Source: a virus
Reading direction: 5' to 3' (one strand)
Virus genome (UHGV): UHGV-0346646
Length of the DNA: 11,385 nt
Shown here: positions 1-11,385 of the stretch, in pieces
How positions within the stretch are numbered: position 1 is the first letter of the stretch
How the letters are laid out: every line of letters begins with the position of its first letter
Notes under the pieces: generated by a model
Seen by the model: the letters and a program-made list of their open reading frames with translations, nothing else
Database searches by the model: none
What the model was told of the DNA's origin: nothing
Position numbers and translations under genes: made by a program

Positions 1-642
1 CGCTTCCACGGCGTTATTGATTACGCGCTTGCTGAAAGTGGCCCTGTGCTCTGAATAGATCGCCACCATTTCGCGGCTAAGTTCCATTGTGCTGACCGGA
101 CACCATACCCCGCCGCGCCATACGTGAACGATTTCACTTTCAGGATGTACGCAAACGCCATCAAAGCGATCGGCAAGCAGCTGCGCGCGCTCACTGTCCG
201 CCATCTGCGAAAGTTGCGCCTTTTGCTTTACCGGAAGCTCAATGACCAGACCATCAGAAAGATTCTGGCGCTCACGGGCCAGATATTCGCGCCAGTTCTC
301 CACCTTCTGACCGTGCATACCATCAGGGTAAAAATTTGCATCCTGTACGCCTGCCGCCGCCAGCTTCTGGCCAATCGCCTTTATCATTACTGGCGCAAGA
401 TATCCGGCCCTGAATATGCGCACGGATTTTCTGCCTTCCGGCACAATTTGCAGCTTATCCAGTTCTGATAACTGCTGCTCCCCAAGCCACACAGGAGGCT
501 CATTATCTCCGGCCATACGCGCATCATGTTCCTGCCATTGTTTCGCGTGTGCCCAGGCATCACTACCCGCAAAAATAATGACTTCTGTTCCTTTGTGTTT
601 TATGCCGCGTGACTGCTGTTTTACGTTCGGTGCCAGTTTCAT
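1..642 (-). CDS. hypothetical protein, 5-prime part only (gene continues past window start)
   Basis: ATG at 642-640 overlaps the stop of the upstream gene (ATGA). Frame stays open for all 214 codons down to position 1; checked by hand translation (MKLAPNVKQQSRGIKHKGTEVIIFAGSDAWAHAKQW...VWRGGVWCPVSTMELSREMVAIYSEHRATFSKRVINNAVEA). Absent from the ORF track because it has no stop inside the window. Function not recognised. Confidence 0.5.
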   Translation of the reverse strand, partial: MKLAPNVKQQSRGIKHKGTEVIIFAGSDAWAHAKQWQEHDARMAGDNEPPVWLGEQQLSELDKLQIVPEGRKSVRIFRAGYLAPVMIKAIGQKLAAAGVQDANFYPDGMHGQKVENWREYLARERQNLSDGLVIELPVKQKAQLSQMADSERAQLLADRFDGVCVHPESEIVHVWRGGVWCPVSTMELSREMVAIYSEHRATFSKRVINNAVEA

Positions 643-938
643 TTTTTACCCCTGAATCCTTTAATCATGGTTTTCATCTTCTGAATATTGGCGCGTGCTT
701 TCTCCCTGCTGGTGGGCACGTTACGCGGTACGGCCTGCACAAGAGAAAAATCACGGTCGAACTGATAAACAGGCATCACGCAATCATATTCGTAGCCTTC
801 ACGACGGTAGGTTACGCGCCGTTCCTCCACGCCCTTAATCATTACCGTGCCGCCGTACTTATCGCGGTAAATATCACCGCGCATGAATTTAGTGCGAGTT
901 TTGCCACTGGCAGTTAAGCCAGAATATTTAAGTTTCAT
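639..938 (-). CDS. hypothetical protein (99 aa)
   Basis: ATG at 938-936 with GGAGAA upstream; stop overlaps the start of the next minus-strand gene (ATGA at 639-642). Part of a translationally coupled minus-strand operon. No recognisable motif. Confidence 0.5.
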   Translation of the reverse strand: MKLKYSGLTASGKTRTKFMRGDIYRDKYGGTVMIKGVEERRVTYRREGYEYDCVMPVYQFDRDFSLVQAVPRNVPTSREKARANIQKMKTMIKGFRGKK

Positions 939-943
939 TATTT

Positions 944-1177
944 TTATTCTCCGGTGTGGGGCGCTTTATACTGGTCGTGTAATGTCTCTATTTCCTGCAA
1001 CTCATTTATTACAGGCTCAAGAAGCGTTATTAATGCCGTGACAATCCTTGATTTCTGTTTATCACGTTCATTATCTCCAAGCGTTTCAAGACATATGCGC
1101 AATATTTCCAACATATTTTCACTGTGAGAAAGTGCAAGAAATGCGCGGTCTATTGTTTCGTGGTAAATATCACGCAT
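944..1177 (-). CDS. hypothetical protein (77 aa)
   Basis: ATG at 1177-1175 preceded by GGGGA; stop at 944-946 lies 5 nt before the next gene start. Protein-like composition. Confidence 0.5.
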   Translation of the reverse strand: MRDIYHETIDRAFLALSHSENMLEILRICLETLGDNERDKQKSRIVTALITLLEPVINELQEIETLHDQYKAPHTGE

Positions 1178-1178
1178 A

Positions 1179-1613
1179 TTAATCCCCGTCCGTCGTTTTT
1201 CTTAAAATAACCTCTGTCACGAAATCAGCATAATCGGCGGCGATATTCAGTACATCAAGCCCCGTTGATTTATATTCTCTCGTGGAAAGTAAGAAAAAAT
1301 CCGCTCTAATAAGCTCTGGCATTGACGAAAGCGCATCAGCCGCATCATCAGGAACGCCGGAAAATTCCTGTTTCAGGGAATTAAAACGATCATCACGCAT
1401 AACCCCCCCATTTTCACAATCAGCAACAAGAATATTTTTAGCGTCATTCAGCGACCGCGTTGCGATGTATCGGATACATTCCAGGGCGAACTGTGTCCGG
1501 TCTTTCTGTTCTTCTCCCTGCGCAAGCTCTGCCGTGCATTCAATATCAATAAGCGCGTGCATCAGCGTAGTGAGTGCGGCGGCGGCTGCGTCCGGTGTGG
1601 TTTTATTGCACAT
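1179..1613 (-). CDS. hypothetical protein (144 aa from the ATG at 1613; track ORF starts further upstream at 1667)
   Basis: Internal ATG at 1613 is preceded by GGAGGGG at good spacing; the 1667 start has no Shine-Dalgarno. Overlaps the stop of the upstream gene by 11 nt. Function not recognised. Confidence 0.5.
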   Translation of the reverse strand: MCNKTTPDAAAAALTTLMHALIDIECTAELAQGEEQKDRTQFALECIRYIATRSLNDAKNILVADCENGGVMRDDRFNSLKQEFSGVPDDAADALSSMPELIRADFFLLSTREYKSTGLDVLNIAADYADFVTEVILRKTTDGD

Positions 1614-1833
1614 GTACCCCTCCGCATTTTTTTTCGTTAGAAATAAGCGTTCTTCTTTCCTGTTCATCGCTCAGGAATACGCAGACCTCACCGCTAAGGC
1701 GTTTAAGTAAGCCGATGATTGCCCCTGATTCGCTGTCGGTCATCATGCCAGGGTAATCCTCTGCCAGTGCGCAAATAACTTCGATTTGGTGGGCGCGTTC
1801 TGCTGCCTGTTGTAGTGTGATTTCCTGGCTCAT
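1603..1833 (-). CDS. hypothetical protein (76 aa)
   Basis: ATG at 1833-1831 overlaps the stop of the upstream gene (ATGA); GGGGG upstream. Confidence 0.45.
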   Translation of the reverse strand: MSQEITLQQAAERAHQIEVICALAEDYPGMMTDSESGAIIGLLKRLSGEVCVFLSDEQERRTLISNEKKCGGVHVQ

Positions 1834-2030
1834 AAGCCTACCCCCTGACGAATACGGGCAGCAAATACCATCACGCAGCCAGCCGGAGATTGCTGGCGTG
1901 CTTCCTGTTCGCTGGTGGCCTCAATGGTAATCACGCGCGGTTGTGCCGTGCTCAGGGCGATAAAACGCCAGATGTATTTATTCAGGTTGTGCGAGTCCCG
2001 CCCTTGCGGGTGTGTGGTATGATTTAACAT
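1830..2030 (-). CDS. small protein (66 aa), possibly Icd-like; family assignment is tentative
   Basis: ATG at 2030-2028 with GAGG 5-6 nt upstream; first gene of the minus-strand operon, downstream of a strong predicted promoter. It is also the C-terminal 66 codons of the long track ORF 1830..3116, which I consider a read-through artefact. Confidence 0.5.
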   Translation of the reverse strand: MLNHTTHPQGRDSHNLNKYIWRFIALSTAQPRVITIEATSEQEARQQSPAGCVMVFAARIRQGVGL

Positions 2031-2067
2031 AGCTACCTCGATACTTTCGCTATCGTTGGTGGTTAGA

Positions 2068-2100
2068 AGCCCTGCGAGTGGTAACGACACTTGCGGGGCT
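2068..2100. promoter_or_regulatory. 13-bp-arm inverted repeat (AGCCCTGCGAGTG / CACTTGCGGGGCT, 7-nt loop) in the leader of the minus-strand operon
   Basis: Read directly: the arms pair fully if two G-U wobbles are allowed. Sits between the predicted minus-strand promoter and the start at 2030. Confidence 0.4.
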
Positions 2101-2127
2101 TTGCATTTATGCACCTTGATAATCTCA

Positions 2128-2168
2128 AGGTGTAGCCCACTATATGCTTTAGGTGTGGCCCACGTCAA
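2128..2168 (-). promoter_or_regulatory. predicted sigma70 promoter for the minus-strand small-gene operon, overlapped by two direct repeats (AGGTGTAGCCCAC 2128-2140 and AGGTGTGGCCCAC 2151-2163)
   Basis: On the minus strand: -35 TTGACG (2168-2163), 18-bp spacer, -10 TATAGT (2144-2139). The direct repeats overlap the spacer and the start site, as operator sites would. Confidence 0.4.
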
Positions 2169-2170
2169 GG

Positions 2171-2199
2171 GTTTTATTTGTGCTTTTTCTGTGTATACT
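2171..2199 (+). promoter_or_regulatory. possible promoter for the ribbon-helix-helix gene
   Basis: -10 TATACT at 2194-2199; the -35 is weak (GTTTTA region). Divergent from the minus-strand promoter. Confidence 0.3.
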
Positions 2200-2229
2200 G
2201 TCCCCCACCAATCCAACAGAGGAATAGAA

Positions 2230-2409
2230 ATGGCAACGGGTACAACAAACGCAAAATCACAAGCTCTAAAGGCTCGTGTACCACACGAAATAGTAAACGC
2301 CATGGAATCAGTGAAAGAATCAGGCGAAAGCACATCACAATTCATCATTGCGTCAATGCAAGGCGAGATCAAACGCCGCCAGCGCCGCAAGGCCAAAGAG
2401 CAGGAGTAA
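2230..2409 (+). CDS. ribbon-helix-helix (Arc/MetJ/CopG-like) DNA-binding protein, 59 aa
   Basis: ATG at 2230 with AGAGGAA Shine-Dalgarno. Protein MATGTTNAKSQALKARVPHEIVNAMESVKESGESTSQFIIASMQGEIKRRQRRKAKEQE has the strand-helix-helix pattern typical of RHH repressors. Followed by tandem plus-strand terminators. Confidence 0.6.
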   Translation: MATGTTNAKSQALKARVPHEIVNAMESVKESGESTSQFIIASMQGEIKRRQRRKAKEQE

Positions 2410-2466
2410 CCATCACCAGCGCCGTGGTGTGAGTAACTACGGCGCATTGCTATGCAGGACAACACA

Positions 2467-2640
2467 ATGACCGATAAAGAATTGACCAAAACATTATCAC
2501 CGGCACGGAAAAGACGGCGCAGAAAGATAGAGCATGAATCAGAAAGATTCGCGCCATGTGCTTTTGCCCTTGAGCAATTCCTTAAAGAGTACAGGGAAAA
2601 GCGCTCATTGCAGGTATGGCAACGAACTGAACCTGACTGA
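2467..2640 (+). CDS. possible small basic protein (57 aa)
   Basis: ATG at 2467 with a weak AGGA upstream; Lys/Arg-rich (SPARKRRRRK). Lies between the RHH gene and the plus-strand terminators. Weakly supported. Confidence 0.3.
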   Translation: MTDKELTKTLSPARKRRRRKIEHESERFAPCAFALEQFLKEYREKRSLQVWQRTEPD

Positions 2641-2719
2641 TTGCATTGCCCACCAGCCGCAAATGTGGCATTGTTGGCAATGCTCATGCGTTGGGGATAA
2701 CGTGTAGCTTGTGTCGAGG

Positions 2720-2748
2720 GGCCACCGTAGCGGGTGGCCTTTGTTTTG
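2720..2748 (+). terminator. rho-independent terminator
   Basis: Stem GGCCACC / GGTGGCC with loop GTAGCG, followed by TTTGTTTTG. Confidence 0.6.
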
Positions 2749-2843
2749 CCCGTTATTCGGCAATTGTGGCGCTTCTCCACATGGTTGATATAATCCCACT
2801 GCTCAGATTCATTTTTTGCGCAGTAGGTTAATTGTTCACAAAG

Positions 2844-2877
2844 GCGCTCCGGCAACGGGGCGCTTTTTGTTTTTATT
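2844..2877 (+). terminator. rho-independent terminator (second of a tandem pair)
   Basis: Stem GCGCTCCG / CGGGGCGC (one G-U) with loop GCAA, followed by TTTTTGTTTTTATT. Confidence 0.6.
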
Positions 2878-2882
2878 AGTTT

Positions 2883-3116
2883 GTAGAAACCTGACTCAGA
2901 GATAATGCTCATATTCTGATTGCCGTCAGGGGTGTAAGTTAAATTTACTCCCTTTTTATCATCAAACATCTGCAACGCTCTGGCGTTAACAATATTGGTT
3001 TCACTCCCGCCAGTAAGGCCGGAAATAACCGGAATAATTTCGGCAAAATTTTGCAGATTCTGTTTTTCAGGACGAACGAAGCCCCGCCCTTGTTCGGGAG
3101 AATATCCAGTATTCAT
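2883..3116 (-). CDS. BRO-N / antirepressor-like N-terminal domain ORF, probably truncated or degenerate
   Basis: First ~78 codons of track ORF 1830..3116 (…DDKKGVNLTYTPDGNQNMSIISESGFYKLI) resemble the C-terminal half of a BRO-N domain from memory. The similarity ends where the plus-strand terminator at 2844-2877 is encoded; the remaining ~350 codons have Cys/Trp/Arg-rich antisense-like composition. True end unknown. Confidence 0.3.
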
Positions 3117-3168
3117 GGTTAGATCTCTGTATTAGTGGATGGGTGGCGGCTGTGTGCCGCCAGCCTGA

Positions 3169-3357
3169 TTAGTGAACTGCCTCGCAGCTGTCCTTCCATG
3201 CCAGAACTTCGGATAAAGACCAGCCAACGGAACGACCGCCCAGCTTACGCCGTGATGGGAATTGTCCGGCTTTTTCCAGGTGGTACCGACATGAGCGGCT
3301 CAGGCCTGTAAGTTGCTGACATTCTTTTTCACGTATAAAGCGATCTGTGCTTAACAC
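3169..3357 (-). CDS. alpA: AlpA-family (prophage CP4-57-type) transcriptional regulator / excisionase-like HTH protein
   Basis: GTG start at 3357-3355 preceded by GGGGGA. Protein (…QQLTGLSRSCRYHLEKAGQFPSRRKLGGRSVGWSLSEVLAWK) matches the AlpA pattern TG.SR.T.Y…G.FP…KLG.RSVGW..SE…W. Sits next to the integrase, as in P4-like islands. Confidence 0.85.
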   Translation of the reverse strand: MLSTDRFIREKECQQLTGLSRSCRYHLEKAGQFPSRRKLGGRSVGWSLSEVLAWKDSCEAVH

Positions 3358-3640
3358 AATTCCCCCTTTGTTGTTTCTTAAAGAGTCATTGGGTGGATTA
3401 TTGGGTTGGGTTGTGTCGGATTGTGTCAGGGTGTTTGTGGAATGGCAAACACTGGCGGCGGTCGTTTTACAGAAGCAGGGGAAATGAGAATAAAAACTCT
3501 TTTAATTCATTATGATGCAAAGGCATAAAATTTTACTTTTACGCCTTTTTTACATATTTTTAAGAGTGATTCGCCAGTGTATAAAAAAACAGTACACCTA
3601 TAAAAATCAAATGGTTATTACGATGGCTGATTTTTAACCC

Positions 3641-3700
3641 GTTGTTCCATTTTGTTCCTTGTTGTTCGTCGTTGTGTCTCGTTGTTTCACGTTGTCCGCA
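3641..3700. repeat. cluster of short direct repeats (CGTTGTT/CGTTGTC units) between the integrase and alpA
   Basis: Read directly: gttgttccattttgttccttgttgttcgtcgttgtgtctcgttgtttcacgttgtcc. Related TTGTGTC units occur at 3400-3440. Confidence 0.5.
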
Positions 3701-3722
3701 TCCTGAAAAATCGCAAAAAAAA

Positions 3723-4970
3723 TTATATTTCTCTGGCTATTGGCAATGTGGTTACGTTTTCATGTGTTCCCGCCAGTATCCCTAACCGCTCCGTCCACAT
3801 ATCCAGCGCGTCACGTTTCGCATCCAGATAACGGGAATGGTTATAGACTCGTTGCATCCCTGGCATCTGATGACCTGTAAGCTGCTCCACGACGTGAGGA
3901 TCCACGCCTAAATCGTTCAGCATCGTTGTAAAGGTGCGCCGGATGTCATGCAGTGACCAGTGAGGGTGTTTTAGCCTCCTGTGCGCTAATCTGCCGTACT
4001 GCGACACGCTTGTTTCCTGTTTCACTTCCCCCAGCAATAAGCCCGTGTGCCTGTTCTGCTCCACCAGCTGCGTGACGAACGGCAGTATTGCTTCCGGTAT
4101 GGGCCGGAATATTGCCACCTTCGTTTTGCTGTGTTCTTTCGGCACGGTCCAGAGCATTTCGGTAAAATCCCACTCGCTGATCTCCGATAACCTCAGTTCT
4201 ACCGTCCGGCATCCGAAAACAATCAGGAGGCGGATTAGTGCGACGTAGTAAGGGGAAAATATTTTTTTGTCCAGTGCCTGCAATAATTCGCCAAGTTCTT
4301 TGGTGCTTAAGACGCGCTCGCTTATATCCGGTTTTTTCCCAACGTCCGCCACACTCATATCATCAAGAACGTTGCTGATTGCATAGCGCCGCCTCCGGCA
4401 GAACTTAAGCGCCTGTTTGCACGTCTGTAGCAAGAATCCGGCAGTAACAGGCGTTCGCTTTGCCACCTGGTCAAAACAGGCCAGCCAGTGCCGTAGCTCG
4501 CATTTATCCAGCGGCATAGCACCAATGTGCTGTATTACGTGATTATTAAGGCGCTTTTTCAGGGCGGCATAATCCACGCGGTTTTCCTTTGCGTACGACT
4601 CAAGCCAGTAGGTGAGCGCATCGCCAACCGTTACCGGCTTTAACGCTTCCTGTACGGTGTAATTCATTTCATGACGTGGATTTTTCCCCTCTGCCAGCCA
4701 TGCGCGACACTGGGCGGCTTTTTCCCTGGCTGATTTCAGGCTCAGATCAGGATAATTTCCCAGCTTAATGCGTTCCGGTGGTGCCCCCCTTCCCGTTCCG
4801 GCCCTGTAAGTGAAATACCAGGTTAAAAGGCCACTGGTTGAATGCCTGACGCTCAGGTTTCCACCGTCATTAAGAAAGGCTGTTTTTTGGGCGGGTGTGC
4901 CGTTGATTTTCCTCAGCTGTGTATCGCTCAGTTTGTTAAGTGCTCTGCTCATAATTTTGATTCCGGTCAT
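3723..4970 (-). CDS. int: P4-type tyrosine integrase (site-specific recombinase, phage integrase family)
   Basis: Conserved C-terminal catalytic region HDIRRTF…GHQMPGMQRVYNHSRYLD (H-x-x-R and catalytic Tyr context) and an N-terminal arm-binding-type region like P4/CP4-57 integrases. Start is ambiguous: GTG 4973, ATG 4970 or ATG 4952 (MSRALNKLSDTQ…). Confidence 0.9.
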   Translation of the reverse strand: MTGIKIMSRALNKLSDTQLRKINGTPAQKTAFLNDGGNLSVRHSTSGLLTWYFTYRAGTGRGAPPERIKLGNYPDLSLKSAREKAAQCRAWLAEGKNPRHEMNYTVQEALKPVTVGDALTYWLESYAKENRVDYAALKKRLNNHVIQHIGAMPLDKCELRHWLACFDQVAKRTPVTAGFLLQTCKQALKFCRRRRYAISNVLDDMSVADVGKKPDISERVLSTKELGELLQALDKKIFSPYYVALIRLLIVFGCRTVELRLSEISEWDFTEMLWTVPKEHSKTKVAIFRPIPEAILPFVTQLVEQNRHTGLLLGEVKQETSVSQYGRLAHRRLKHPHWSLHDIRRTFTTMLNDLGVDPHVVEQLTGHQMPGMQRVYNHSRYLDAKRDALDMWTERLGILAGTHENVTTLPIAREI

Positions 4971-4972
4971 CA

Positions 4973-5009
4973 CAATTAACTACACCATTAACTACACCGA
5001 TCGTTGCAC
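4973..5009. repeat. direct repeat copy 1 (contains tandem AACTACACC units), immediately upstream of and overlapping the integrase start
   Basis: caattaactacaccattaactacaccgatcgttgcac. A near-identical copy lies 234 bp away at 5207-5242; the flanks share a degenerate ACAACGTG-GAACAA motif. Confidence 0.7.
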
Positions 5010-5206
5010 AAAGGGCTACAACGTGAAACAAGCTGGAACAAGGAAAATCACAAATCTGTTTATAATCAAAAACATAATGAACAACCTGAAACATTATGAA
5101 ACGGCAAAAAACACTAATTGATAAAATATGTCCTTTTATCACTACATCAAGGCAAGCCATTGATTTAATTAAATGATTTGCACTGCAAAAAGTGCTAAAA
5201 ATCGCA

Positions 5207-5242
5207 AATTGACTACACCATTAACTACACCGATCGTTGCAC
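5207..5242. repeat. direct repeat copy 2 of the integrase-upstream repeat
   Basis: aattgactacaccattaactacaccgatcgttgcac; one mismatch against copy 1. Confidence 0.7.
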
Positions 5243-5451
5243 TGTATGAAACAACGTGGAACAAATAGACACAAGAAATATACAGGCGGGTCATCTTTCC
5301 AGGGGGAAGCGCGCCAATTCATGAGGGGCGTTAATGTCGATATGGGGATCCCCATAACGGGGCTACCTGGCTTTTTTCCGGTTAAATGTCAATCAGGCTG
5401 GTGGGTTTTACATACCCTTGATCACCGTAATGATGATCCAGATGTGCGCCT

Positions 5452-5507
5452 TTCCACCAATGGTGGAAAAGCCCACAGCAGGCCGCCCAGCCTCCCCCAA
5501 TGGGGGA
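5452..5507. repeat. pair of related GC-rich palindromes (TTCCACCAATGGTGGAA at 5452-5468; TCCCCCAATGGGGGA at 5493-5507)
   Basis: Read directly; centres 41 bp apart. A third palindrome, ATGGGGATCCCCAT, is at 5342-5355. Candidate protein-binding or recombination core sites in the non-coding junction. Confidence 0.5.
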
Positions 5508-5515
5508 TTGTGGAA

Positions 5516-5684
5516 GAATCAACGGGTTAGGCCTTAATGGGCTGCGTGGTAATTATCAGCATCCAGAATATGACGGGTTATGTTTCCGACCTCTTCAATT
5601 TGAGGTTCCCGAAAATATCAACGGGTTAGGCTGGTTTCCCCGATGTTCGCCGCTGGCGAATTTCGAAAATATCAACCAGTTACC
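5516..5684. repeat. three direct repeats of an ATCAAC(G/C)(G/A)GTTA(G/C)(G/C) unit (5516-5533, 5608-5632, 5662-5684)
   Basis: gaatcaacgggttaggcc; cccgaaaatatcaacgggttaggct; ttcgaaaatatcaaccagttacc. The last copy overlaps the stop of the 93-aa gene. Confidence 0.5.
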
Positions 5685-5961
5685 GCCGCAACCGCTCCGG
5701 CTTCTTCCAGTGGTACGTAATTTTCTCCGTTTCCCGATACAGTGCCACGCGGCGATTGTAGGCCAGCATTTCAAGAACGCGGATCCGTATGTTGCGCATA
5801 TCCACATCATTAAGCTGGATACCATTACGGCGAATCACCTCAGCAACCACACGAACATAATTTTCGGCGGTCACGCTGTCCGGCTGCGTGGTCTGTTCGT
5901 CGGCCTGCTGGCTGATTCCGGCAACGCGGCGGATTAATCGCAGTATTTCGGCTTCTGTCAT
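5680..5961 (-). CDS. hypothetical protein (93 aa), last gene of the packaging-side module
   Basis: ATG at 5961-5959 with GGGGG 5 nt upstream; the track ORF 5680..6159 extends upstream through the cos copy and is not credible there. Protein MTEAEILRLIRRVAGISQQ… has no recognised motif. Confidence 0.5.
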   Translation of the reverse strand: MTEAEILRLIRRVAGISQQADEQTTQPDSVTAENYVRVVAEVIRRNGIQLNDVDMRNIRIRVLEMLAYNRRVALYRETEKITYHWKKPERLRR

Positions 5962-5994
5962 TGTGCCCCCATCGTTCTGATAGTCTGGTGTCGT

Positions 5995-6066
5995 CGGGTC
6001 CTTCCTGGAATTATGGCCCGTTACGGGGCGGCGACCTCGCGCGTTTTCACTATTTATGAAAATTTT
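5995..6066 (+). other. lambda-type cos site, copy 1 (cosN with cohesive-end sequence GGGCGGCGACCT at 6026-6037)
   Basis: gttacgGGGCGGCGACCTcgcgcgttttcactatttatgaaaattttt is near-identical to the lambda genome junction (…GTTACG / GGGCGGCGACCTCGCGGGTTTTCGCTATTTATGAAAATTTTCCGG) as I remember it. Confidence 0.75.
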
Positions 6067-6075
6067 TCGGGATCC

Positions 6076-6172
6076 ATGTCCGGTTTCTCTGCAAGTTAAC
6101 CATATGAAAAATATAAAAACATGCTTTCCATGAACCGGACATGCGCAAAAAACAGACACTAAAACCGGACAT
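6076..6172 (+). promoter_or_regulatory. cosB-like repeats: ATGTCCGGTT (6076-6085, inverted), AT-rich spacer, AACCGGACAT (6134-6143) and AACCGGACAT (6163-6172)
   Basis: One inverted plus two direct 10-bp sites with an A/T-rich stretch between the inverted pair, paralleling lambda cosB (R3 - IHF site I1 - R2 - R1). Lies directly after cosN copy 1. Confidence 0.5.
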
Positions 6173-6240
6173 CGAACCAGTTAACCGAAAGTGTGCACAA
6201 ATCACATGCATTGCTGCGAGTGATTAACAAGTTATCGGCT

Positions 6241-6675
6241 TTACTGTTCTGTATCGGCTGATTGCTCCATGCTGGCACGGCGAACGCTTACGGCATGACG
6301 CCACCCAGCCAGAAAGCCAGCCATTTTATTTCGTGCCTTGCTCACATCTTCCGGTGAATAGCCGTAAATCTGCAAACCTTCATCAAATCGATGTTCTGTT
6401 TCTTCACTGGAGTACTCGTCACGCTCAGATGAAAGCAGCCTGGCAAACATAATTTTTTCCAGCGCACTGGTTTCTACGTGATATCTGATGGCCTCAAGAC
6501 GGCTTTTACCTGAAGACCAAAGCAATGTATGCCCGATGTGATAACCGCCAGACTTTCCGCGATCCGCATTAAGATACGGCATCCCCTGTTTGGTCCATGC
6601 GCGAATAGTGGTTCTGTTAACCTTGAAATGTTCAGCTATTTCCTGCTGACTTACAAAACAAGCTTTATCAATCAT
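6241..6675 (-). CDS. lambda Nu1-like small terminase-type protein (N-terminal winged-HTH DNA-binding domain), 144 aa
   Basis: ATG at 6675. N-terminus VSQQEIAEHFKVNRTTIRAWTKQGMPYLNADRGKSGGYHIGHTLLW aligns by eye with lambda Nu1 KKQLADIFGASIRTIQNWQEQGMPVLRGGGKGNEVLYDSAAVIKW. Shorter than Nu1 (181 aa). Lies about 90 bp downstream (minus strand) of cosN copy 2. Confidence 0.7.
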   Translation of the reverse strand: MIDKACFVSQQEIAEHFKVNRTTIRAWTKQGMPYLNADRGKSGGYHIGHTLLWSSGKSRLEAIRYHVETSALEKIMFARLLSSERDEYSSEETEHRFDEGLQIYGYSPEDVSKARNKMAGFLAGWRHAVSVRRASMEQSADTEQ

Positions 6676-6744
6676 AATGTTACCTTAACTGCATGGTTAA
6701 ATATTAATCAAGTGGTGGTGGTGTCACCTTCACGGAAAAACGTC

Positions 6745-6807
6745 ATAAATAGCGAAAACCCGCGAGGTCGCCGCCCCGTAACGGGCCATAATTCCAGGAA
6801 GGACCCG
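6745..6807 (-). other. lambda-type cos site, copy 2, inverted relative to copy 1 (cohesive-end sequence at 6765-6776 read on the minus strand)
   Basis: Reverse complement reads cgggtccttcctggaattatggcccgttacgGGGCGGCGACCTcgcgggttttcgctatttatg; 47 bp are identical to copy 1 and about 70 bp match with two mismatches. Confidence 0.75.
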
Positions 6808-6808
6808 T

Positions 6809-6830
6809 AAAAAAGCCGGATTTCTCCGGC
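6809..6830 (-). terminator. rho-independent terminator ending the capsid operon
   Basis: Minus-strand hairpin GCCGGA-GAAA-TCCGGC followed by TTTTTT, just after the stop at 6837. Confidence 0.65.
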
Positions 6831-6836
6831 CTTGTC

Positions 6837-7250
6837 TCAGATGGTTTTCAGTATGCGATCGATGTCGCCGTCATCGCCCTGGTTTCTGCCATCGTATGCC
6901 ATGCCAGCTGATACGGCTTGCGGGCTGTGCATGTCCATAAAGTTTTCAAAGGCTGCGGTAAGCTCTGGTGCAACCTTTGGGCGCTCCTGCTCTATGGTCA
7001 TGTTCAGGATTTCACGAGCATTATCGACGCTAATACATGGCACGTTTGCCATTGCACGTAACAGCGGCTGATAGTCTTTATGCTCATGAAGCGCCATAAT
7101 CGCATCAGCGCGCGGCTTGTCCTGCTCTTCCAGTTTGTTTAGTTGATATACGGCCTCATAGGTTGATAAACCTCTGTCAGCCATTGCCCGCGCTTCGGCT
7201 TTAAATTTACTCGCCAGCGGTAGCGTCATGATGCTTTCATTCGTTGCCAT
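6837..7250 (-). CDS. hypothetical protein (137 aa), last gene of the capsid operon; possible scaffold-like or capsid accessory protein (speculative)
   Basis: ATG at 7250 with GGGGG 5 nt upstream; predicted helix-rich and acidic. Function not recognised. Confidence 0.55.
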   Translation of the reverse strand: MATNESIMTLPLASKFKAEARAMADRGLSTYEAVYQLNKLEEQDKPRADAIMALHEHKDYQPLLRAMANVPCISVDNAREILNMTIEQERPKVAPELTAAFENFMDMHSPQAVSAGMAYDGRNQGDDGDIDRILKTI

Positions 7251-7262
7251 CGTTCCCCCTGC

Positions 7263-7598
7263 TTATCGGGCCAGCGGCTGAACGGATACGCCGGAACCCG
7301 CAAAGGCGGCGCATTTTTTCGCATCGGTGTCGACGCTCTCAGGCCAGTTAACGGCGGCAATATTGAATATCCCCGTCTTGTAACACTGTGCTGATTTCTG
7401 CTTTGACGTGTCCACAGGGTACGAGGTCAGATAAACAGCCTTGCCAGATTCCTGACCATCCCACGGCTTAAACTCGCCATTGTCCGCCAGCATCAGCGGG
7501 GTAAATTCCTGAATAACGCCAGCATCAGCGGCAAAATGTACCAGCGTCGTGGCGACCTGCTGACTGCCTGCAAATAACTCAATGTATGGAGTGTCCAT
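7263..7598 (-). CDS. head decoration protein, lambda gpD family
   Basis: TPLMLADNGEFKPWDG…YKTGIFNIAAVNWPES…AKKCAAFAGSGVSV aligns by eye with lambda gpD TPLMLDTSSRKLVAWDG…YKSGTFRYEDVLWPEA…TKKRTAFAGTAISI. Similar length (111 vs 110 aa). GGGGG Shine-Dalgarno. Confidence 0.8.
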   Translation of the reverse strand: MDTPYIELFAGSQQVATTLVHFAADAGVIQEFTPLMLADNGEFKPWDGQESGKAVYLTSYPVDTSKQKSAQCYKTGIFNIAAVNWPESVDTDAKKCAAFAGSGVSVQPLAR

Positions 7599-7609
7599 AG
7601 AATCCCCCG

Positions 7610-8665
7610 TTAACCAATTTTGACGGTAACAAATTTGCGAATATCTGCCGGAACCGGCTGCGGTGCGCTGTGCGTCTGCACGTACTCAATCGCCGGATCG
7701 CCGTCCTCAATCCAGTTTTTCGGGTAAAACATGTTTTGCGTTGCGCCCGTTCTTACTGCGTCCTGATCCATAATCGCACCATAGGCCACCAGCCCTTTAT
7801 TGTTGGTGTTGCCCAGGACAAGCAAATCAGGCTCAAGGAAATATTTTTCTGTGCCGTCGCTGTCAGTGTATTTGCCGGAATAGACGATAAGGGCAATATC
7901 GCCCAGATAGCCTTTAAAGCTCACCACTTCGCCCAGGTTTTTACAGGCCAGCTCTGCGGCGGACTCTGAACCACGGGAAAGATCGTACAGCTCACGGAAT
8001 TTTTTAAAGCTGCGTAACGTTCGCCATACCTCAGCGCCCATAATCATGACGTTTGCGGGGCAACCAGCCTGATCGGCGTATAGTTCGATATCATAGATTG
8101 GATCGTGGGTTTCTTTGTCCTGCTCTGACCATTTTTTCCCGTCGGCCTGCTCTATGATGTTTTTTTCCGGTATCTTCCAGTCGATTTCATAGCGCTCTAT
8201 GCCTTCGCCTTCAATGATGTTTTTTCCGGTCGTTACCGCATTTACCGCCAGCCATTCCACGCGCGCTTTTATGGCGTTTATCTGGCGGCGCATATTGCCA
8301 GTAATCAGGCGCATACGGCGATAGGTAGGGTCGTTAAGCTGTGCCGGATCTTCTCCAGCCATGCGCATGATGGTTTTCGTTGGATCGATTTCGTGCTTTG
8401 GCTTCATGTAGCCAGGTTTAATCGTGCTGGTTTCGTACCCTTTATCGCGCTGAACCTGGCTACCCACCATAGGCGAACAAAACGCCGACATGGTGACTTC
8501 TTCAATGTCCAGGGTATCCAGCATGATGTTTTGCGTGCTGAATGTCGCCACGTTCGGGAAAAACAGCGTGGTAAACAGCGGACTGAATTTAAATTCCGCA
8601 ATATCCCCGCGATTCAGGTACGCAAAAAGCTGGTTAGTGTTAAGTGCCATTGCTTTTACTGTCAT
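7610..8665 (-). CDS. major capsid protein, lambda gpE family
   Basis: 351 aa with FKFSPLFTTLFF, PGYMKPKHE, DPTYRRMR, SFKGYLGDIALIVYSG, YPKNW and GDPAIE motifs matching lambda gpE (FKFDPLFLRLFF, PGYVKPKHE, DPAYRRRR, SYKGMYGDVAIVVYSG, YPKNW, GDPARE) at the same relative positions. Confidence 0.9.
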   Translation of the reverse strand: MTVKAMALNTNQLFAYLNRGDIAEFKFSPLFTTLFFPNVATFSTQNIMLDTLDIEEVTMSAFCSPMVGSQVQRDKGYETSTIKPGYMKPKHEIDPTKTIMRMAGEDPAQLNDPTYRRMRLITGNMRRQINAIKARVEWLAVNAVTTGKNIIEGEGIERYEIDWKIPEKNIIEQADGKKWSEQDKETHDPIYDIELYADQAGCPANVMIMGAEVWRTLRSFKKFRELYDLSRGSESAAELACKNLGEVVSFKGYLGDIALIVYSGKYTDSDGTEKYFLEPDLLVLGNTNNKGLVAYGAIMDQDAVRTGATQNMFYPKNWIEDGDPAIEYVQTHSAPQPVPADIRKFVTVKIG

Positions 8666-8871
8666 TATTCACCCCCGTGAACCTGATTCATACCCAGCGC
8701 CGCGCGTAAATAGGCGCGTACCTGCCAGCCTGTTGACGGCTCAACCATCGCCAGCGGATCAAGTCCTGCCGCAATGCCTGCTTTTACGTTCTGCTGGTGG
8801 CGTTCCTTGAGCGCCTTCACGATGTCGGGGCTTATGTACACCGAAACACCGCCTTTTTTCTCTTCAGCCAT
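8665..8871 (-). CDS. hypothetical protein (68 aa), first gene of the capsid operon
   Basis: ATG at 8871; stop overlaps the capsid gene start by 1 nt (TAATG). Shine-Dalgarno spacing is long (AGAGGA ~12 nt upstream), so the start is uncertain. Confidence 0.45.
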   Translation of the reverse strand: MAEEKKGGVSVYISPDIVKALKERHQQNVKAGIAAGLDPLAMVEPSTGWQVRAYLRAALGMNQVHGGE

Positions 8872-8904
8872 AGTAAGAAATTCCTCTTTGACTTAAAAAA
8901 TCAT

Positions 8905-8953
8905 AACTGGATGTTCATCCAGCTCTGATTATAATCATGATTGCATTTTGTGC
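8905..8953 (-). promoter_or_regulatory. predicted capsid-operon promoter with overlapping palindromes
   Basis: Minus strand: -35 TTGCAC (8953-8948), 16-bp spacer, -10 TATAAT (8931-8926) inside the palindrome GATTATAATC. The perfect inverted repeat CTGGATG-TT-CATCCAG (8905-8920) lies at about +1 to +16. Confidence 0.4.
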
Positions 8954-9036
8954 AATGATGTTGAGTTGCGTTGCAAATTATGAAATGATTATCCCGATCA
9001 TGTGTGTCAGTGCACCAAAAAGCCTCATATGCAAAA

Positions 9037-9073
9037 GCCCGATAAGCCACCTCTGACCTTATCGGGCTTTTTT
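9037..9073. terminator. orphan terminator-like hairpin in the 415-bp intergenic region
   Basis: GCCCGATAAG - 11-nt loop - CTTATCGGGC followed by TTTTTT on the plus strand (AAAA precedes it). No obvious plus-strand gene upstream. Confidence 0.35.
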
Positions 9074-9248
9074 ATCTGCCTGCAAAGATGTCGAACGAAA
9101 ATTAACCACAACCATCATCTTTTTTGCATCAAAACAATTAAAAACAATAAATTACGCTCATGATGATGATGACGATAAAATCACAAAAATGCGCTTTTTT
9201 CCGCGCCTCCCGCCCCGTGTTCAGGCCCACCCCGCCAGGAGGACCCGT

Positions 9249-9271
9249 AAAAAAGCCGGATTGCTCCGGCT
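9249..9271 (-). terminator. rho-independent terminator after the SSB gene
   Basis: Minus-strand hairpin AGCCGGA-GCAA-TCCGGCT followed by TTTTTT. Sequence is near-identical to the terminator module at 6791-6840. Confidence 0.6.
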
Positions 9272-9286
9272 TCTGTCTCTCGTCGC

Positions 9287-9709
9287 TTAAAACGGTATGT
9301 TATCCCCGTACGGATCATCATTCCCCGCCTGTTGTTTTGCCCTGTTCAGCGCGTCAGTAGCCTGGCCCTGTTGACCTTTTTTGCCGCCCAGTCGCGCCGT
9401 TCGCGCACTGATTACACTGTCTGCGATAACCTGCCAGCCCTGCCGCGTTTCTCCGTTCTGCCCAGTCCACTGGCTGATCTGCATGTTACCCGCCACGCTC
9501 AGGAGTTCACCCTTGCGGTGCCTTTCCAGTGCTTCGGCCTGTCTGCCAAATGCCAGGACGGATAACCACATCGTCGCCGTTCCGTCATCTGCCTGGCTGC
9601 ACGGAAGGGGGACCGCCATACGCGCCAGCGTCATCGGTGTGCCCTTGCTGGTCTGTTTTACCTGCGGGTCGTCCACCAGCCGCCCGTAAGCTGCTATCTG
9701 TGCTGTCAT
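9287..9709 (-). CDS. ssb: single-stranded DNA-binding protein (SSB, OB-fold)
   Basis: Aligns by eye with E. coli SSB: G.L..DP.V, W..V..FG..AE, RKG, W.G..G..R. C-terminal acidic tail ends NDDPYGDNIPF (compare SSB …DFDDDIPF). GAGGTGG Shine-Dalgarno. Confidence 0.75.
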   Translation of the reverse strand: MTAQIAAYGRLVDDPQVKQTSKGTPMTLARMAVPLPCSQADDGTATMWLSVLAFGRQAEALERHRKGELLSVAGNMQISQWTGQNGETRQGWQVIADSVISARTARLGGKKGQQGQATDALNRAKQQAGNDDPYGDNIPF

Positions 9710-9765
9710 GATTCCACCTCTCCGGTTTTAACGTTGATGGTTGTTACCTGTTCCGCTTCGGCAAT

Positions 9766-9984
9766 CTACCGCTCTGTCAGCGTGGCAAAATTTGCCGCCG
9801 TCGTGGTCATGAATGCGCTTATCAGTTCGGGATGTGCTTTCGCGTATCCTTCCCCCGCGTGGCGGTCTATCGTTCTGATTGCCACCTTTAAAGCGTGCTC
9901 TGTCATGTCTAACGCGCGATATTTCGGTTCTGTTCTGTCTCTGCGTTTTTTGAGTGATTTATTAAATTTCCCTGAAGTGTGCAT
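9766..9984 (-). CDS. hypothetical small protein (72 aa or shorter from an internal Met)
   Basis: ORF between the origin and ssb; the Shine-Dalgarno is poorly placed, so the start is uncertain. Confidence 0.4.
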   Translation of the reverse strand: MHTSGKFNKSLKKRRDRTEPKYRALDMTEHALKVAIRTIDRHAGEGYAKAHPELISAFMTTTAANFATLTER

Positions 9985-10033
9985 ATTTATTTTTACCCCC
10001 TCGTTTAAAAAGTTTTGAGTTGTGCCTCCCCTT

Positions 10034-10259
10034 GTCTACCTTATCTACCTTAGTGGCCCTCATGCCAGTAATGGCGCGGCTTTCAGCGGGGTAGAGTGCT
10101 TTTATCCACTATCTACCCCGTGTCTACCTCCCTGTCTGATTCAGGTAAAATCAGGTAGAGAGGGTAGATAGTGGGTAGACAGTAAAAAAAGGCTATCTAC
10201 CTAACTTAATGCACTGAATTAAATGTATTTTTCTTTACTCAGGTAGACAGGGTAGACAG
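10034..10259. repeat. iteron cluster, putative replication origin (about 11 copies of GGTAGA(C/G/T)AG in both orientations)
   Basis: TCTACC at 10035, 10044, 10112, 10123 and 10196; GGTAGA at 10089, 10154, 10163, 10174, 10242 and 10251. Immediately downstream of the primase/helicase stop at 10273. Confidence 0.7.
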
Positions 10260-10272
10260 CAATTACAAAAAA

Positions 10273-11385
10273 TTATAAAAACGCGTCGCACTCGTCTGTT
10301 GTTATTGCGTTAGTCTGCGTTACCCCCTTAACTTTCCGCGTAATATATTCATGTCCGTAAACTTTTGCGGCAGGCTTCATAGCCTTTCCAAAGTCATTTA
10401 CGTTTAGCGGTTTGCTCCTGCCTGCGTATGCCATAAACGCCAGATAGACGCGGTAAAGGCTGTTCCTGGTCGTGTACTTCACTGAATCGCCACCGCCCCC
10501 CATCATCAGGCCGCGCGCTTCCTCCAGAAAATTCAGGAACTGGCAAAACTCAATAACCGGATCCGTCTGTTGCTTTATTGCCAGTGCTTCATCACCGTCA
10601 CGCTGTTCCAGTAGTAAAGCCCGTGCCTTCTCAGGGTCGGTAAAGTTCGCCAGCAATCGGCGGATAATGACAGGGATTTCAGCCGCGATCTTTTCCGGTA
10701 GCTCCCTGTCTTTTTCGGCCTCACTGACGATATTGTCGAAACGGAAAATCACGCGACGACGTGCCACACCTCCGGCCCGTTCGGTGAATATCATCGGGTT
10801 ATTGTTGGTCGCCAGCACCACCGCCCTGATTACAGCCGTGAAACGCTTTTCGTATTTCGGGTTAATTTCCACGGGGTCACCGCCCGTGATTTTCTTGATG
10901 CCCGTTCCTTCGCCTGTATATTTCGGCTGGTCAGCCAGGACGATAAGACGACTCCCGACAACCTGCGCACGTCCACCAGCATCATCAAGCGATGTCATTT
11001 CAGCGCTTACCGTGTTCTGTTTCCCTGCCAGAAGGCTGGCTATGTGCGTGAATGTACTTTTACCGCTCCCGCCGTCTCCGGTGGCCTCAATAAACATCTG
11101 CCAGTCGTACCGGTTCGCCATAATCATGTACAGCGCGGCACATATACGCATCATCTTGCGCGGGTCTTTTCCGGCTGCGTGCTCAAGCCATTTATGAAAG
11201 TTTGGCGCGTTATCGCGGATGTTCTCCCCTGGTGCTGGTGGCGTGTACTCAATGCCGTTGTGCGTGGTGATCCAGTTCTCCGGCGTGTGCGGGGAAAATC
11301 CCCCCGTTTTCAGGTCAAGCGCACCATTGGCGAACGGCAGCAAATCGCCGGACGGCTCGCCCATTGGTTCGGCAATAACTTTTAA
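10273..11385 (-). CDS. P4-family phage/plasmid primase C-terminal region with D5_N-like and SF3 helicase (P-loop) domains; 3-prime part only (start lies beyond window end)
   Basis: Walker A GDGGSGKST; upstream D5_N-like LLPFANGALDLKTGGFSPHTPENWIT; Walker B-like LIVLADQ. The frame is open upstream of the first in-window Met to position 11385, so the gene starts outside the window. Confidence 0.85.
   Translation of the reverse strand, partial: LKVIAEPMGEPSGDLLPFANGALDLKTGGFSPHTPENWITTHNGIEYTPPAPGENIRDNAPNFHKWLEHAAGKDPRKMMRICAALYMIMANRYDWQMFIEATGDGGSGKSTFTHIASLLAGKQNTVSAEMTSLDDAGGRAQVVGSRLIVLADQPKYTGEGTGIKKITGGDPVEINPKYEKRFTAVIRAVVLATNNNPMIFTERAGGVARRRVIFRFDNIVSEAEKDRELPEKIAAEIPVIIRRLLANFTDPEKARALLLEQRDGDEALAIKQQTDPVIEFCQFLNFLEEARGLMMGGGGDSVKYTTRNSLYRVYLAFMAYAGRSKPLNVNDFGKAMKPAAKVYGHEYITRKVKGVTQTNAITTDECDAFL

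What the first reader, a model, noticed from the sequence alone, without database searches (positions are those of the whole stretch)
4973..5275. Two 36-bp direct repeats with tandem AACTACACC units upstream of the integrase
Near-identical copies at 4973-5009 and 5207-5242 flank a 200-bp AT-rich stretch, and the first overlaps the int start region. Each carries two AACTACACC units plus a shared GATCGTTGCAC tail. The spacing is too short for attL/attR of an element. Arm-type Int sites, AlpA activator sites around the int promoter, or a duplicated att core at a tandem-element junction are all possible.
Basis: seen in the sequence. Interest (0 to 1): 0.5.

Follow-up and report, generated by a model that had tools for sequence, protein, structure and literature searches.

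The report
Integrase arm sites in a satellite attP
The two repeats are real and most likely are the docking sites for the integrase's N-terminal domain on either side of the recombination crossover point of a phage satellite (an EcCICFT073-like island); this is an ordinary P4-type attachment site, though its geometry proves to be shared across a whole integrase clade.

Summary
A 36-nt direct repeat (35/36 identical) lies at 4974-5009 and 5207-5242. Each copy holds two tandem 12-bp-period units, TTAACTACACC.

The window is one complete EcCICFT073-like capsid-forming PICI, circularly permuted: its two ends join into an intact 584-aa primase. So 4953-5290 is an intact attP.

Comparing attB, attL and attR in E. 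coli puts the crossover core between the repeats, not in them. It reads TGATAAAA|TATGTCC|TTTTATCA at 5119-5141.

The repeats are therefore P-arm and P'-arm elements, 132 and 79 bp from the core centre. The P-arm copy ends 23 nt before the int ATG at 4952.

Int carries an Arm-DNA-bind_3 domain. Phage P4's record annotates the same layout: tandem 12-bp arm repeats on both sides of the core.

Relatives with 34-91% identical Int (tqsA-, fis- and helper-embedded PICIs, Salmonella phage Oslo) keep two co-oriented doubled units 231-235 bp apart. The unit sequence changes with the Int N-terminal domain.

Best reading: four arm-type Int half-sites. The duplicated-core idea is refuted and AlpA-operator sites are disfavoured.

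A second repeat class, GAACAA at 10-bp phase, flanks the units and recurs upstream of alpA. It is a candidate AlpA/excisionase site.

Verdict: a new member of a known kind.

The parts
4953..5290 (.). Intact attP of the island: P arm (int side), core, P' arm. The outer limits are approximate.
   Evidence: Window 1-5133 matches the CFT073 int-side junction, and 5124-9073 matches the CFT073 phoQ-side junction. attB, attL and attR were compared.
4976..4998 (-). P-arm doubled unit: 2 x TTAACTACACC at a 12-bp period. On the int-coding strand it reads GGTGTAGTTAAtGGTGTAGTTAA. Proposed Int arm-type half-sites P1/P2, 24-46 nt upstream of the int ATG.
   Evidence: Its nearest edge is 132 bp from the core centre at 5130.
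5209..5231 (-). P'-arm doubled unit: TTGACTACACC + TTAACTACACC, co-oriented with the P-arm pair. Proposed Int arm-type half-sites P'1/P'2.
   Evidence: Its nearest edge is 79 bp from the core centre. It is also present at the phoQ-side end of integrated EcCICFT073 (L001 6084-6119).
4999..5009 (.). Shared tail GATCGTTGCAC of the first copy. The second copy has it at 5232-5242. It is conserved only among close relatives.
   Evidence: It varies to GTTCGGTGCAC, and is replaced in L111.
5119..5141 (.). Core: C TGATAAAA (5119-5126), 7-bp overlap TATGTCC (5127-5133), C' TTTTATCA (5134-5141). This is a perfect 8-bp inverted repeat around the overlap. The identity block shared with attB is AAATATGTCC (5124-5133).
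   Evidence: Sequence. attB of K-12 reads TGAATAAATATGCCCATACTTCA. The empty site with TATGTCC is 100% identical in Nissle 1917 and ATCC 25922.
5153..5165 (-). IHF-consensus match AATCAATGGCTTG in the P' arm, between the core and the P' units.
   Evidence: 5 matches in the window against 0.56 expected. The site is conserved in the EC444 and NCCP13894 junctions.
5008..5041 (+). Array of ACAA/GAACAA units at an exact 10-bp phase (4 units), directly after the P-arm units. A weaker continuation lies at 5081-5104. Candidate binding sites for a directionality factor (AlpA).
   Evidence: runs of 3 or more occur 3 times in the window against 0.005 in shuffles. The array is kept in relatives.
5251..5274 (+). 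10-bp-phased ACAA array (3 units), directly after the P'-arm units.
3642..3695 (-). Six 10-bp-phased ACAAC units between the int stop and alpA. This is the same motif class as in the att arms.
   Evidence: The phase is kept in relatives although the surrounding sequence diverged.
3723..4952 (-). int: a 409-aa P4-type tyrosine integrase with an N-terminal arm-binding domain.
   Evidence: Pfam Arm-DNA-bind_3 at residues 8-95 (E 5e-18) and Phage_integrase (E 6e-17). PDB 3jtz/3rmp N-domain match.
3169..3357 (-). alpA: Phage_AlpA family, 47% identical to P4 Vis.
   Evidence: Pfam E 9e-18. tblastn hit to P4 ORF88, annotated as 'excisionase and transcriptional regulator'.

Best explanation
The two 36-bp repeats are the arm-type integrase-binding sites of the attP of an EcCICFT073-like capsid-forming PICI.

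Each repeat supplies two half-sites (GGTGTAGTTAA on the int strand, 12-bp period), giving four in all, one per N-terminal Arm-DNA-bind_3 domain of an Int tetramer. The catalytic and core-binding domains act on the core TGATAAAA|TATGTCC|TTTTATCA at 5119-5141, which lies between the repeats. DNA bending brings arms and core together in the intasome; an IHF-like site at 5153-5165 and phased GAACAA arrays are candidates for that role. The intasome integrates the island immediately after the phoQ stop codon.

Because the P-arm pair lies 24-46 nt upstream of the int ATG, Int bound there probably also represses its own gene, as in P4 and KplE1.

Shown here: the repeat, its position in both arms of a mapped attP, its absence from attB, the arm-binding domain in Int, the conserved geometry, and co-variation with Int across relatives.

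Inferred: physical binding by Int, the four-site stoichiometry, bending, and autoregulation.
For: (1) attP mapping. Window 1-5133 equals the int-side junction and 5124-9073 the phoQ-side junction of EcCICFT073. attB, attL and attR share only AAATATGTCC. An empty site 100% identical to the reconstructed attB exists in Nissle 1917 and ATCC 25922.

(2) The window ends join into an intact 584-aa primase, so the attP is intact.

(3) Int has PF13356 Arm-DNA-bind_3 and matches the 3jtz N-domain.

(4) The P4 record annotates 'attP arm sequence repeat' as tandem 12-bp pairs on both sides of the core. The int-side pair lies 16-39 nt from the int ATG.

(5) The geometry is conserved while the sequence differs. 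Start-to-start spacing is 233 (window, NCCP13894, EC444), 232 (L111), 233 (fis-PICI vB_KppS-Ant and P12620-1), 232-235 (HE-PICIs), 231 (phage Oslo) and 209 (P4). This agrees with the published 81 and 132 bp offsets in HE-PICIs (PMC10111431), against 79 and 132 bp here.

(6) Co-variation. Int N-terminal allele B (17/60 differences, against 20/347 in the rest) pairs with GGTGTAGTCAC in three of the four half-sites and GGTGTAGTCAT in the fourth. HE Ints pair with TGTATTGC, fis Ints with TGTATAAACA, and Oslo Int with TGTGTACCA.

(7) The cloned int-attP segment of EcCICFT073 suffices for integration in a recA host (PMC6092414).
Against: No binding or mutational data exist for this element; everything about Int contact is inferred.

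Int N-terminal alleles, the arms and the core lie within a few hundred bp in the circular form. Part of the 'co-variation' could therefore be linkage from module exchange rather than co-adaptation.

The authors who saw the analogous motif in HE-PICIs left AlpA or an unknown protein open as the binder.

No sigma-70-like promoter was found by the simple scan in 4850-5400, so the autoregulation step has no mapped promoter to act on.
Confidence: 0.85

Rival explanations
1. The repeats are operators for AlpA (an activator or excisionase-type winged-helix protein), which binds them to control int expression or to direct excision.
For: AlpA is encoded next to int. It is 47% identical to P4 Vis, an excisionase and regulator. 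The HE-PICI authors considered AlpA a possible binder of their doubled motif. In the loci sampled, AlpA type and unit type are linked, so they cannot be separated.
Against: The unit is absent from the alpA upstream region, which AlpA activates. AlpA did not alter Pint-lacZ in EcCICFT073 (PMC6092414). The same doubled-unit layout occurs in phage Oslo and in P4, where the repeats are annotated as Int arm repeats. Directionality-factor sites are typically direct repeats one helical turn apart (PMC7498355 abstract). That description fits the separate 10-bp GAACAA arrays, not the 12-bp units.
Confidence: 0.07
2. The repeats are duplicated att cores (attL/attR remnants) left at a junction between two tandem islands, or flank a decayed 200-bp element.
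For: Two chromosomal assemblies (NCCP 13894, EC444) do carry this junction between two tandem islands. The window reads as int followed by a capsid module.
Against: The crossover maps to 5124-5133, between the repeats. In singly integrated CFT073, one copy lies 75-110 bp inside the phoQ-side end and the other 115-150 bp inside the int-side end. attB has no copy. The 197 bp between the copies is simply the inner P arm, the core and the inner P' arm.
Confidence: 0.01
3. The repeats are replication iterons or packaging (cos/pac) recognition sites rather than recombination sites.
For: P4 has its cis replication region (crr) directly beside attP. PICI cos sites lie at this end of the island (PMC10111431).
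Against: There are only four units, split 2+2 symmetrically about the core. No further copies lie near the primase gene or elsewhere. The spacing is tied to the int start and the core in elements with unrelated replication and packaging modules, including the temperate phage Oslo. A separate set of 19-nt repeats at 5511-5682 is a better cos candidate.
Confidence: 0.03

Closest known systems
Satellite phage P4 attP (Int arm repeats; Int and Vis)
   Same: P4-type integrase with an Arm-DNA-bind_3 N-domain. int is transcribed away from attP. Tandem pairs of 12-bp arm repeats are co-oriented on both sides of the core, with the int-side pair a few tens of nt before the int ATG. An AlpA/Vis homologue is encoded in the element. 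Int represses its own gene in P4 (Piazzolla 2006, as cited in PMC2951348).
   Different: The unit sequence is unrelated (P4 TGGGGGCAT; here GGTGTAGTTAA). Pair-to-pair spacing is 209 bp in P4 and 233 bp here. P4 has extra single or inverted copies. Int is only 22% identical. P4 targets a tRNA-Leu gene (from my own knowledge); this element targets the phoQ 3' end.
Doubled TGTATTGC motif in attP of helper-embedded PICIs (PMC10111431)
   Same: A doubled unit with a 12-bp period occurs in two co-oriented copies at fixed distances from the attP centre: published 81+/-2 and 132+/-2 bp, here 79 and 132 bp. In my reconstructions the start-to-start spacing is 232-235 bp, against 233 here. Units in both begin with TGTA on the int strand.
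   Different: The unit sequence differs (TGTATTGC vs TGTAGTTAA), Int is 40-46% identical, and the target sites differ. That paper reported its motif as absent from other PICIs, including fis PICIs. Here each clade is seen to have its own unit in the same geometry (fis: TGTATAAACA).
P2/186 attP arm sites
   Same: [quoted passage not shown] The unit consensus differs between Int types (tgTGGaCa vs tgccGCCActt), in parallel with N-terminal residues (PMC3448106).
   Different: The integrase family and N-domain are different, and the spacing and gene order differ. The directionality factor there is Cox/Apl.
KplE1 (IntS/TorI) attL-Pint overlap
   Same: The int promoter region overlaps the arm-type sites, giving negative autoregulation by Int and the directionality factor (PMC2951348). 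This is the model for the proposed regulatory side-effect here.
   Different: The arm-site sequence and number differ. Regulation is demonstrated there and only inferred here. No promoter is mapped here.

Membership tests
Arm-type sites of a heterobivalent (P4-type) tyrosine integrase attP | The cognate integrase has an N-terminal arm-binding domain. | tested here: met
   PF13356 Arm-DNA-bind_3 at residues 8-95, E 5e-18. PDB 3jtz/3rmp N-domain, E 7e-4.
Arm-type sites of a heterobivalent (P4-type) tyrosine integrase attP | The repeats lie outside the crossover core, in the element-derived arms, and are absent from attB. | tested here: met
   The core at 5119-5141 was mapped from attB, attL and attR. 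The repeats lie 79 and 132 bp away. K-12 and Nissle attB have none.
Arm-type sites of a heterobivalent (P4-type) tyrosine integrase attP | The core has inverted core-type sites around a 6-8 bp overlap that is identical in attP and attB. | tested here: met
   TGATAAAA|TATGTCC|TTTTATCA. The attB of B2 strains carries the identical TATGTCC.
Arm-type sites of a heterobivalent (P4-type) tyrosine integrase attP | The repeat sequence tracks the integrase N-domain across relatives while the layout is kept. | tested here: met
   Caveat: physical linkage of the int 5' end and the arms.
Arm-type sites of a heterobivalent (P4-type) tyrosine integrase attP | The Int N-domain binds the repeats directly, and they are required for recombination. 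| not testable with these tools
   This needs gel shift or footprinting and attP mutagenesis. The only available fact is that the int-attP segment is sufficient for integration (PMC6092414).
EcCICFT073-type capsid-forming PICI | Gene set int-alpA-primase-SSB-capsid/decoration, size about 11-15 kb, and a specific chromosomal att site not used by prophages. | tested here: met
   Pfam results. 98-99% nucleotide identity to EcCICFT073 over most of its length. Site between phoQ and roxA.
Duplicated att core / tandem-junction remnant | Each repeat copy coincides with the recombination crossover (the identity block shared with attB). | tested here: not met
   The identity block AAATATGTCC lies at 5124-5133, between the copies.
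AlpA operator | The motif is present at the AlpA-activated alpA promoter, and AlpA changes int promoter activity. | tested here: not met
   No unit with 2 or fewer mismatches occurs in 3358-3722. Pint is unaffected by AlpA in EcCICFT073 (PMC6092414). Direct binding was not tested.
HE-PICI doubled motif (PMC10111431) | The sequence tgTGTATTGCantgTGTATTGCa. | tested here: not met
   The unit here is GGTGTAGTTAA. Only the TGTA start, the 12-bp period and the geometry are shared.

The most novel reading that the evidence does not exclude
The '2+2' layout is an unrecognised invariant of the whole PICI / P4-like integrase clade. It consists of two tandem 12-bp units in each arm, co-oriented, about 233 bp (about 22 helical turns) apart and placed asymmetrically about 80 and 132 bp from the crossover. 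In this reading the layout acts as a molecular ruler for the intasome. A TGTA-anchored unit carries a variable 3' half that is read by beta-strand residues of the Arm-DNA-bind_3 domain (for example SVRHSTSGLL vs SVKYLTSGKL). In the phoQ/tqsA PICIs, AlpA also doubles as the directionality factor by polymerising on 10-bp-phased GAACAA arrays that occur both in the att arms and upstream of alpA.
Probability: 0.4. Interest if true: 0.45.

Novelty: new member of a known kind. Interest (0 to 1): 0.3.

Why it matters
It fixes the anatomy of the attachment site of the model Gram-negative satellite EcCICFT073 and its relatives. That anatomy comprises a 23-bp core after the phoQ stop codon, four candidate Int arm half-sites, an IHF-like site, and a second set of phased repeats.

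This is directly usable for engineering PICI-based delivery vectors and for calling island boundaries.

It also shows that the motif reported as peculiar to helper-embedded PICIs is one instance of a clade-wide layout with a conserved spacing of about 233 bp. That gives a simple test set (natural allele A and allele B pairs) for how arm specificity is encoded.

It does not reveal a new kind of system.

Tried and rejected
(1) The genome-contig scan with Int returned one locus only (Shigella flexneri), so it gave no diversity.

(2) An exact search for the 24-nt core in viral contigs found nothing, so I could not show packaged circular copies with this exact core there.

(3) The motif scans of viral contigs returned many chance or unrelated hits. 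Only loci that also matched the window or Int were used.

(4) The sigma-70 scan of 4850-5400 found no promoter, so the int promoter remains unmapped.

(5) The Rfam gathering search of the whole window found nothing, so no known RNA explains the repeats.

(6) I looked for a double dissociation between Int type and AlpA type, to assign the 12-bp units and the 10-bp arrays to different proteins. In the loci held, the two are linked, so the test was uninformative.

(7) I considered the GATCGTTGCAC tail as a third, degenerate arm unit in phase. It is not conserved in L111, so I dropped it.

(8) The iteron/cos and duplicated-core readings were rejected, as set out under the rival explanations.

Full report
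**Observation**

Reading 4700-5600 and the repeat finder confirm a 36-nt direct repeat at 4974-5009 and 5207-5242. It is 35/36 identical, with 233 bp start to start. Each copy is two tandem units TTAACTACACC (one is TTGACTACACC) at a 12-bp period, followed by GATCGTTGCAC.

With 0-1 mismatch the 11-mer occurs only at 4976, 4988, 5209 and 5221 in the window. The DNA between the copies has GC 0.26-0.36, against about 0.5 outside.

The similarity continues for about 75 nt with an indel.

The int ORF listed from GTG 4973 is mechanical. RefSeq homologues and the alignment of Int relatives begin at ATG 4952. The first copy is therefore 21-57 nt upstream of the start codon, not over it.

**What the window is**

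Pfam assigns the following:
- 3723-4952(-): a tyrosine integrase with an Arm-DNA-bind_3 N-domain
- 3169-3357(-): AlpA
- 7610-8665(-): a lambda-E-type major capsid protein
- 7263-7598(-): a head decoration protein
- 9287-9709(-): SSB
- 10273-11364(-): a D5-type primase

Megablast against complete E. coli genomes leads to CFT073, where an island of this content lies between phoQ and roxA. This is the PICI EcCICFT073 studied in PMC6092414.

Pairwise blastn gives these matches:
- Window 1-5133 equals the int-side part of that island up to its junction (98.9%).
- Window 5124-9073 equals the phoQ-side part starting at its junction (98.3%).
- Window base 11385 and base 1 are adjacent bases in CFT073.

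Joining the window ends gives an uninterrupted 584-aa primase. The window is therefore one whole island, circularly permuted. It could be an excised circle, a concatemer unit or a tandem unit. Either way, 4953-5290 is an intact attP.

Only 2 of 5,426 complete E. coli genomes carry this junction in the chromosome, as tandem islands.

**Where recombination happens**

The four junction sequences are:
- attB in K-12...GATGAATAAATATGCCCATACTTCA...
- CFT073 attL...GATGAATAAATATGTCCTTTTATCA...
- CFT073 attR...TTGATAAAATATGTCCATACTTCA...
- Window: ...TTGATAAAATATGTCCTTTTATCA...

The shared block is AAATATGTCC (5124-5133).

In attP it sits in a perfect 8-bp inverted repeat around 7 bp: TGATAAAA|TATGTCC|TTTTATCA (5119-5141). 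This is the usual form of a tyrosine-recombinase core.

An empty site rebuilt from the CFT073 flanks, carrying TATGTCC, is 100% identical over 125 nt in Nissle 1917, ATCC 25922 and others. 4,823 of 5,426 genomes have the site uninterrupted.

The 36-bp repeats are thus not cores. With the centre at 5130, the nearest edges of the unit pairs are 132 bp (int side, P arm) and 79 bp (P' arm) away. In singly integrated CFT073, one copy is at each end of the island, inside it.

**Who binds them**

Int has the arm-binding domain and matches the solved CP4-like integrase N-domain 3jtz.

The GenBank record of P4, the prototype of this integrase type, annotates 'attP arm sequence repeat' features as tandem 12-bp pairs:
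- 3942-3965, which is 16-39 nt from the int ATG
- 4151-4174, on the far side of the core (4078-4097), co-oriented with the first pair

The layout recurs in relatives with other unit sequences:

| Element | Int identity | Unit (int strand) | Start-to-start spacing |
|---|---|---|---|
| This window | 100% | GGTGTAGTTAA | 233 bp |
| EC444 junction | 91% | GGTGTAGTCAC | 233 bp |
| IMG/VR contig L111 | 77% | GGTGTAGT(C/T)AA | 232 bp |
| Klebsiella satellite vB_KppS-Ant and 'phage' P12620-1 (fis-PICI) | 50% | TGTATAAACA (doubled) | 233 bp |
| Helper-embedded PICI loci | 40-46% | TGTATTGC (doubled) | 232-235 bp |
| Salmonella phage Oslo | 34% | TGTGTACCA (doubled) | 231 bp |
| P4 | 22% | TGGGGGCAT | 209 bp |

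Further points on this table:
- In the fis-PICI elements, the fis identity block lies between the two copies.
- The helper-embedded PICI spacings come from my reconstructions of attP. They match the published offsets of 81+/-2 and 132+/-2 bp (PMC10111431).
- In L111 the tail sequence is different although the units are kept.

On the int strand, the units of the PICI clades and Oslo all begin (G)TGTA and differ in the 3' half.

Within the close family there are two alleles. Int allele A (..SVRHSTSGLLT..) goes with GGTGTAGTTAA. Int allele B (EC444, L015..SVKYLTSGKLT..) differs at 17 of the first 60 residues but at only 20 of the remaining 347. It goes with GGTGTAGTCAC in three of the four half-sites (GGTGTAGTCAT in the fourth) and with another core, next to tqsA.

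Between these alleles, the inner arms are nearly identical while the units changed at the same positions. This is what co-adaptation of Int N-domain and arm site predicts, although linkage cannot be excluded.

**Mechanism proposed**

Four Int N-domains bind the four half-sites. The C-terminal domains bind C and C' and exchange strands across TATGTCC.

The arms are folded back by bends. An IHF-consensus site lies at 5153-5165 in the P' arm; the window has 5 such matches against 0.56 expected.

The conserved distance of about 233 bp suggests a fixed intasome geometry.

The P pair lies in the int leader region. By analogy with P4 and KplE1 (PMC2951348), bound Int should lower int expression. This step is inferred, and no sigma-70-like promoter was detected by the simple scan.

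**Second motif class**

ACAA (GAACAA) at an exact 10-bp phase forms runs of 3 or more at three places and nowhere else (0.005 expected):
- 5008-5041
- 5251-5274
- on the other strand, 3695-3642, between the int stop and alpA

Relatives keep the phase although the sequence has drifted. L111 keeps CGAACAA arrays in both arms and a phased CGARC triplet upstream of its alpA.

HE, fis, Oslo and P4 loci lack the arrays.

Several facts point to AlpA as the binder:
- Directionality factors typically bind direct repeats one turn apart (PMC7498355 abstract).
- AlpA activates its own promoter, and its over-expression induces int-dependent excision and replication (PMC6092414).
- AlpA is 47% identical to P4 Vis, annotated as excisionase and regulator.

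AlpA is therefore the favoured binder of these arrays. However, Int type and AlpA type are linked in my sample, so this is unproven.

**Rivals**

- AlpA operators: the unit is missing from the AlpA-activated alpA promoter region, and AlpA does not affect Pint.
- Duplicated core or tandem remnant: refuted by the junction mapping.
- Iterons or cos: there are only 2+2 copies, tied to the core and int in elements with unrelated replication and packaging genes.
- Known RNA families: none in the window.

**Comparison and novelty**

This is a P4-type attP with its own arm-unit sequence. P4's arm repeats are annotated in its GenBank record. P2/186 show the same 'two direct repeats per arm' rule (PMC3448106). 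The HE-PICI paper described the same geometry but thought the motif specific to that group.

What is added here:
- the map of the EcCICFT073-type attP
- the finding that fis-, phoQ- and tqsA-PICIs and a temperate phage each have their own unit in the same geometry
- the A/B allele pair

This is a new member of a known kind, of modest interest.

Noticed in passing
window 1-642 and 10273-11385 (- strand): The window is a circular permutation of a complete 11,385-bp island. Its two ends are adjacent bases in CFT073, and joining them restores an intact 584-aa primase gene that the window boundary splits.
   Followed up: yes
window 3642-3695 (-), 5008-5041 (+), 5251-5274 (+): ACAA/GAACAA units at an exact 10-bp phase occur in both att arms and in a six-unit array between the int stop and alpA. 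They are absent from HE, fis, Oslo and P4 relatives. They are candidate AlpA (directionality factor / autoregulator) sites; the binder is unresolved.
   Followed up: partly
window 5511-5529, 5610-5628, 5664-5682: Three copies of a 19-nt repeat (CGAAAATATCAACGGGTTA-like) lie between attP and the last late gene. Each contains an IHF consensus (WATCAANNNNTTR). This is a possible cos or packaging recognition region.
   Followed up: no
window 5338-5359, 5453-5467, 5493-5507: Three short perfect or near-perfect palindromes lie just beyond the P' arm: CGATATGGGGA/TCCCCATAACG, TCCACCAATGGTGGA and TCCCCCAATGGGGGA. Their function is unknown.
   Followed up: no
L005 (E. coli EC444) 3141-3500; L015 3857-4005: A sister integrase (91% identical, with divergence concentrated in the first 60 residues) uses almost the same arms, with units changed from TTAAC to GTGAC (ATGAC in the fourth) and a different core (TGATAAAATGCTGTTATATATAAC). 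It integrates next to tqsA instead of phoQ. This is a natural specificity-swap pair.
   Followed up: partly
L002 (E. coli NCCP 13894) 1-16613: Two identical copies of a related island lie in tandem, with an attP-like junction between them. Only 2 of 5,426 complete E. coli genomes show such a junction. It could be a true tandem or an assembly effect of a replicating island.
   Followed up: no
window 1830-3116 (- strand): A 428-aa open frame with an odd, low-complexity-looking translation spans a region where CFT073 is annotated with several small genes on both strands (Icd-like, YlcI/YnfO). It is probably not a real gene.
   Followed up: no
window 9073-9381: This is the only sizeable stretch of the island without a blastn match to EcCICFT073. 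The flanking primase/SSB segment (9381-11385) is only 91% identical, against 98-99% elsewhere, which suggests a mosaic replication module.
   Followed up: no
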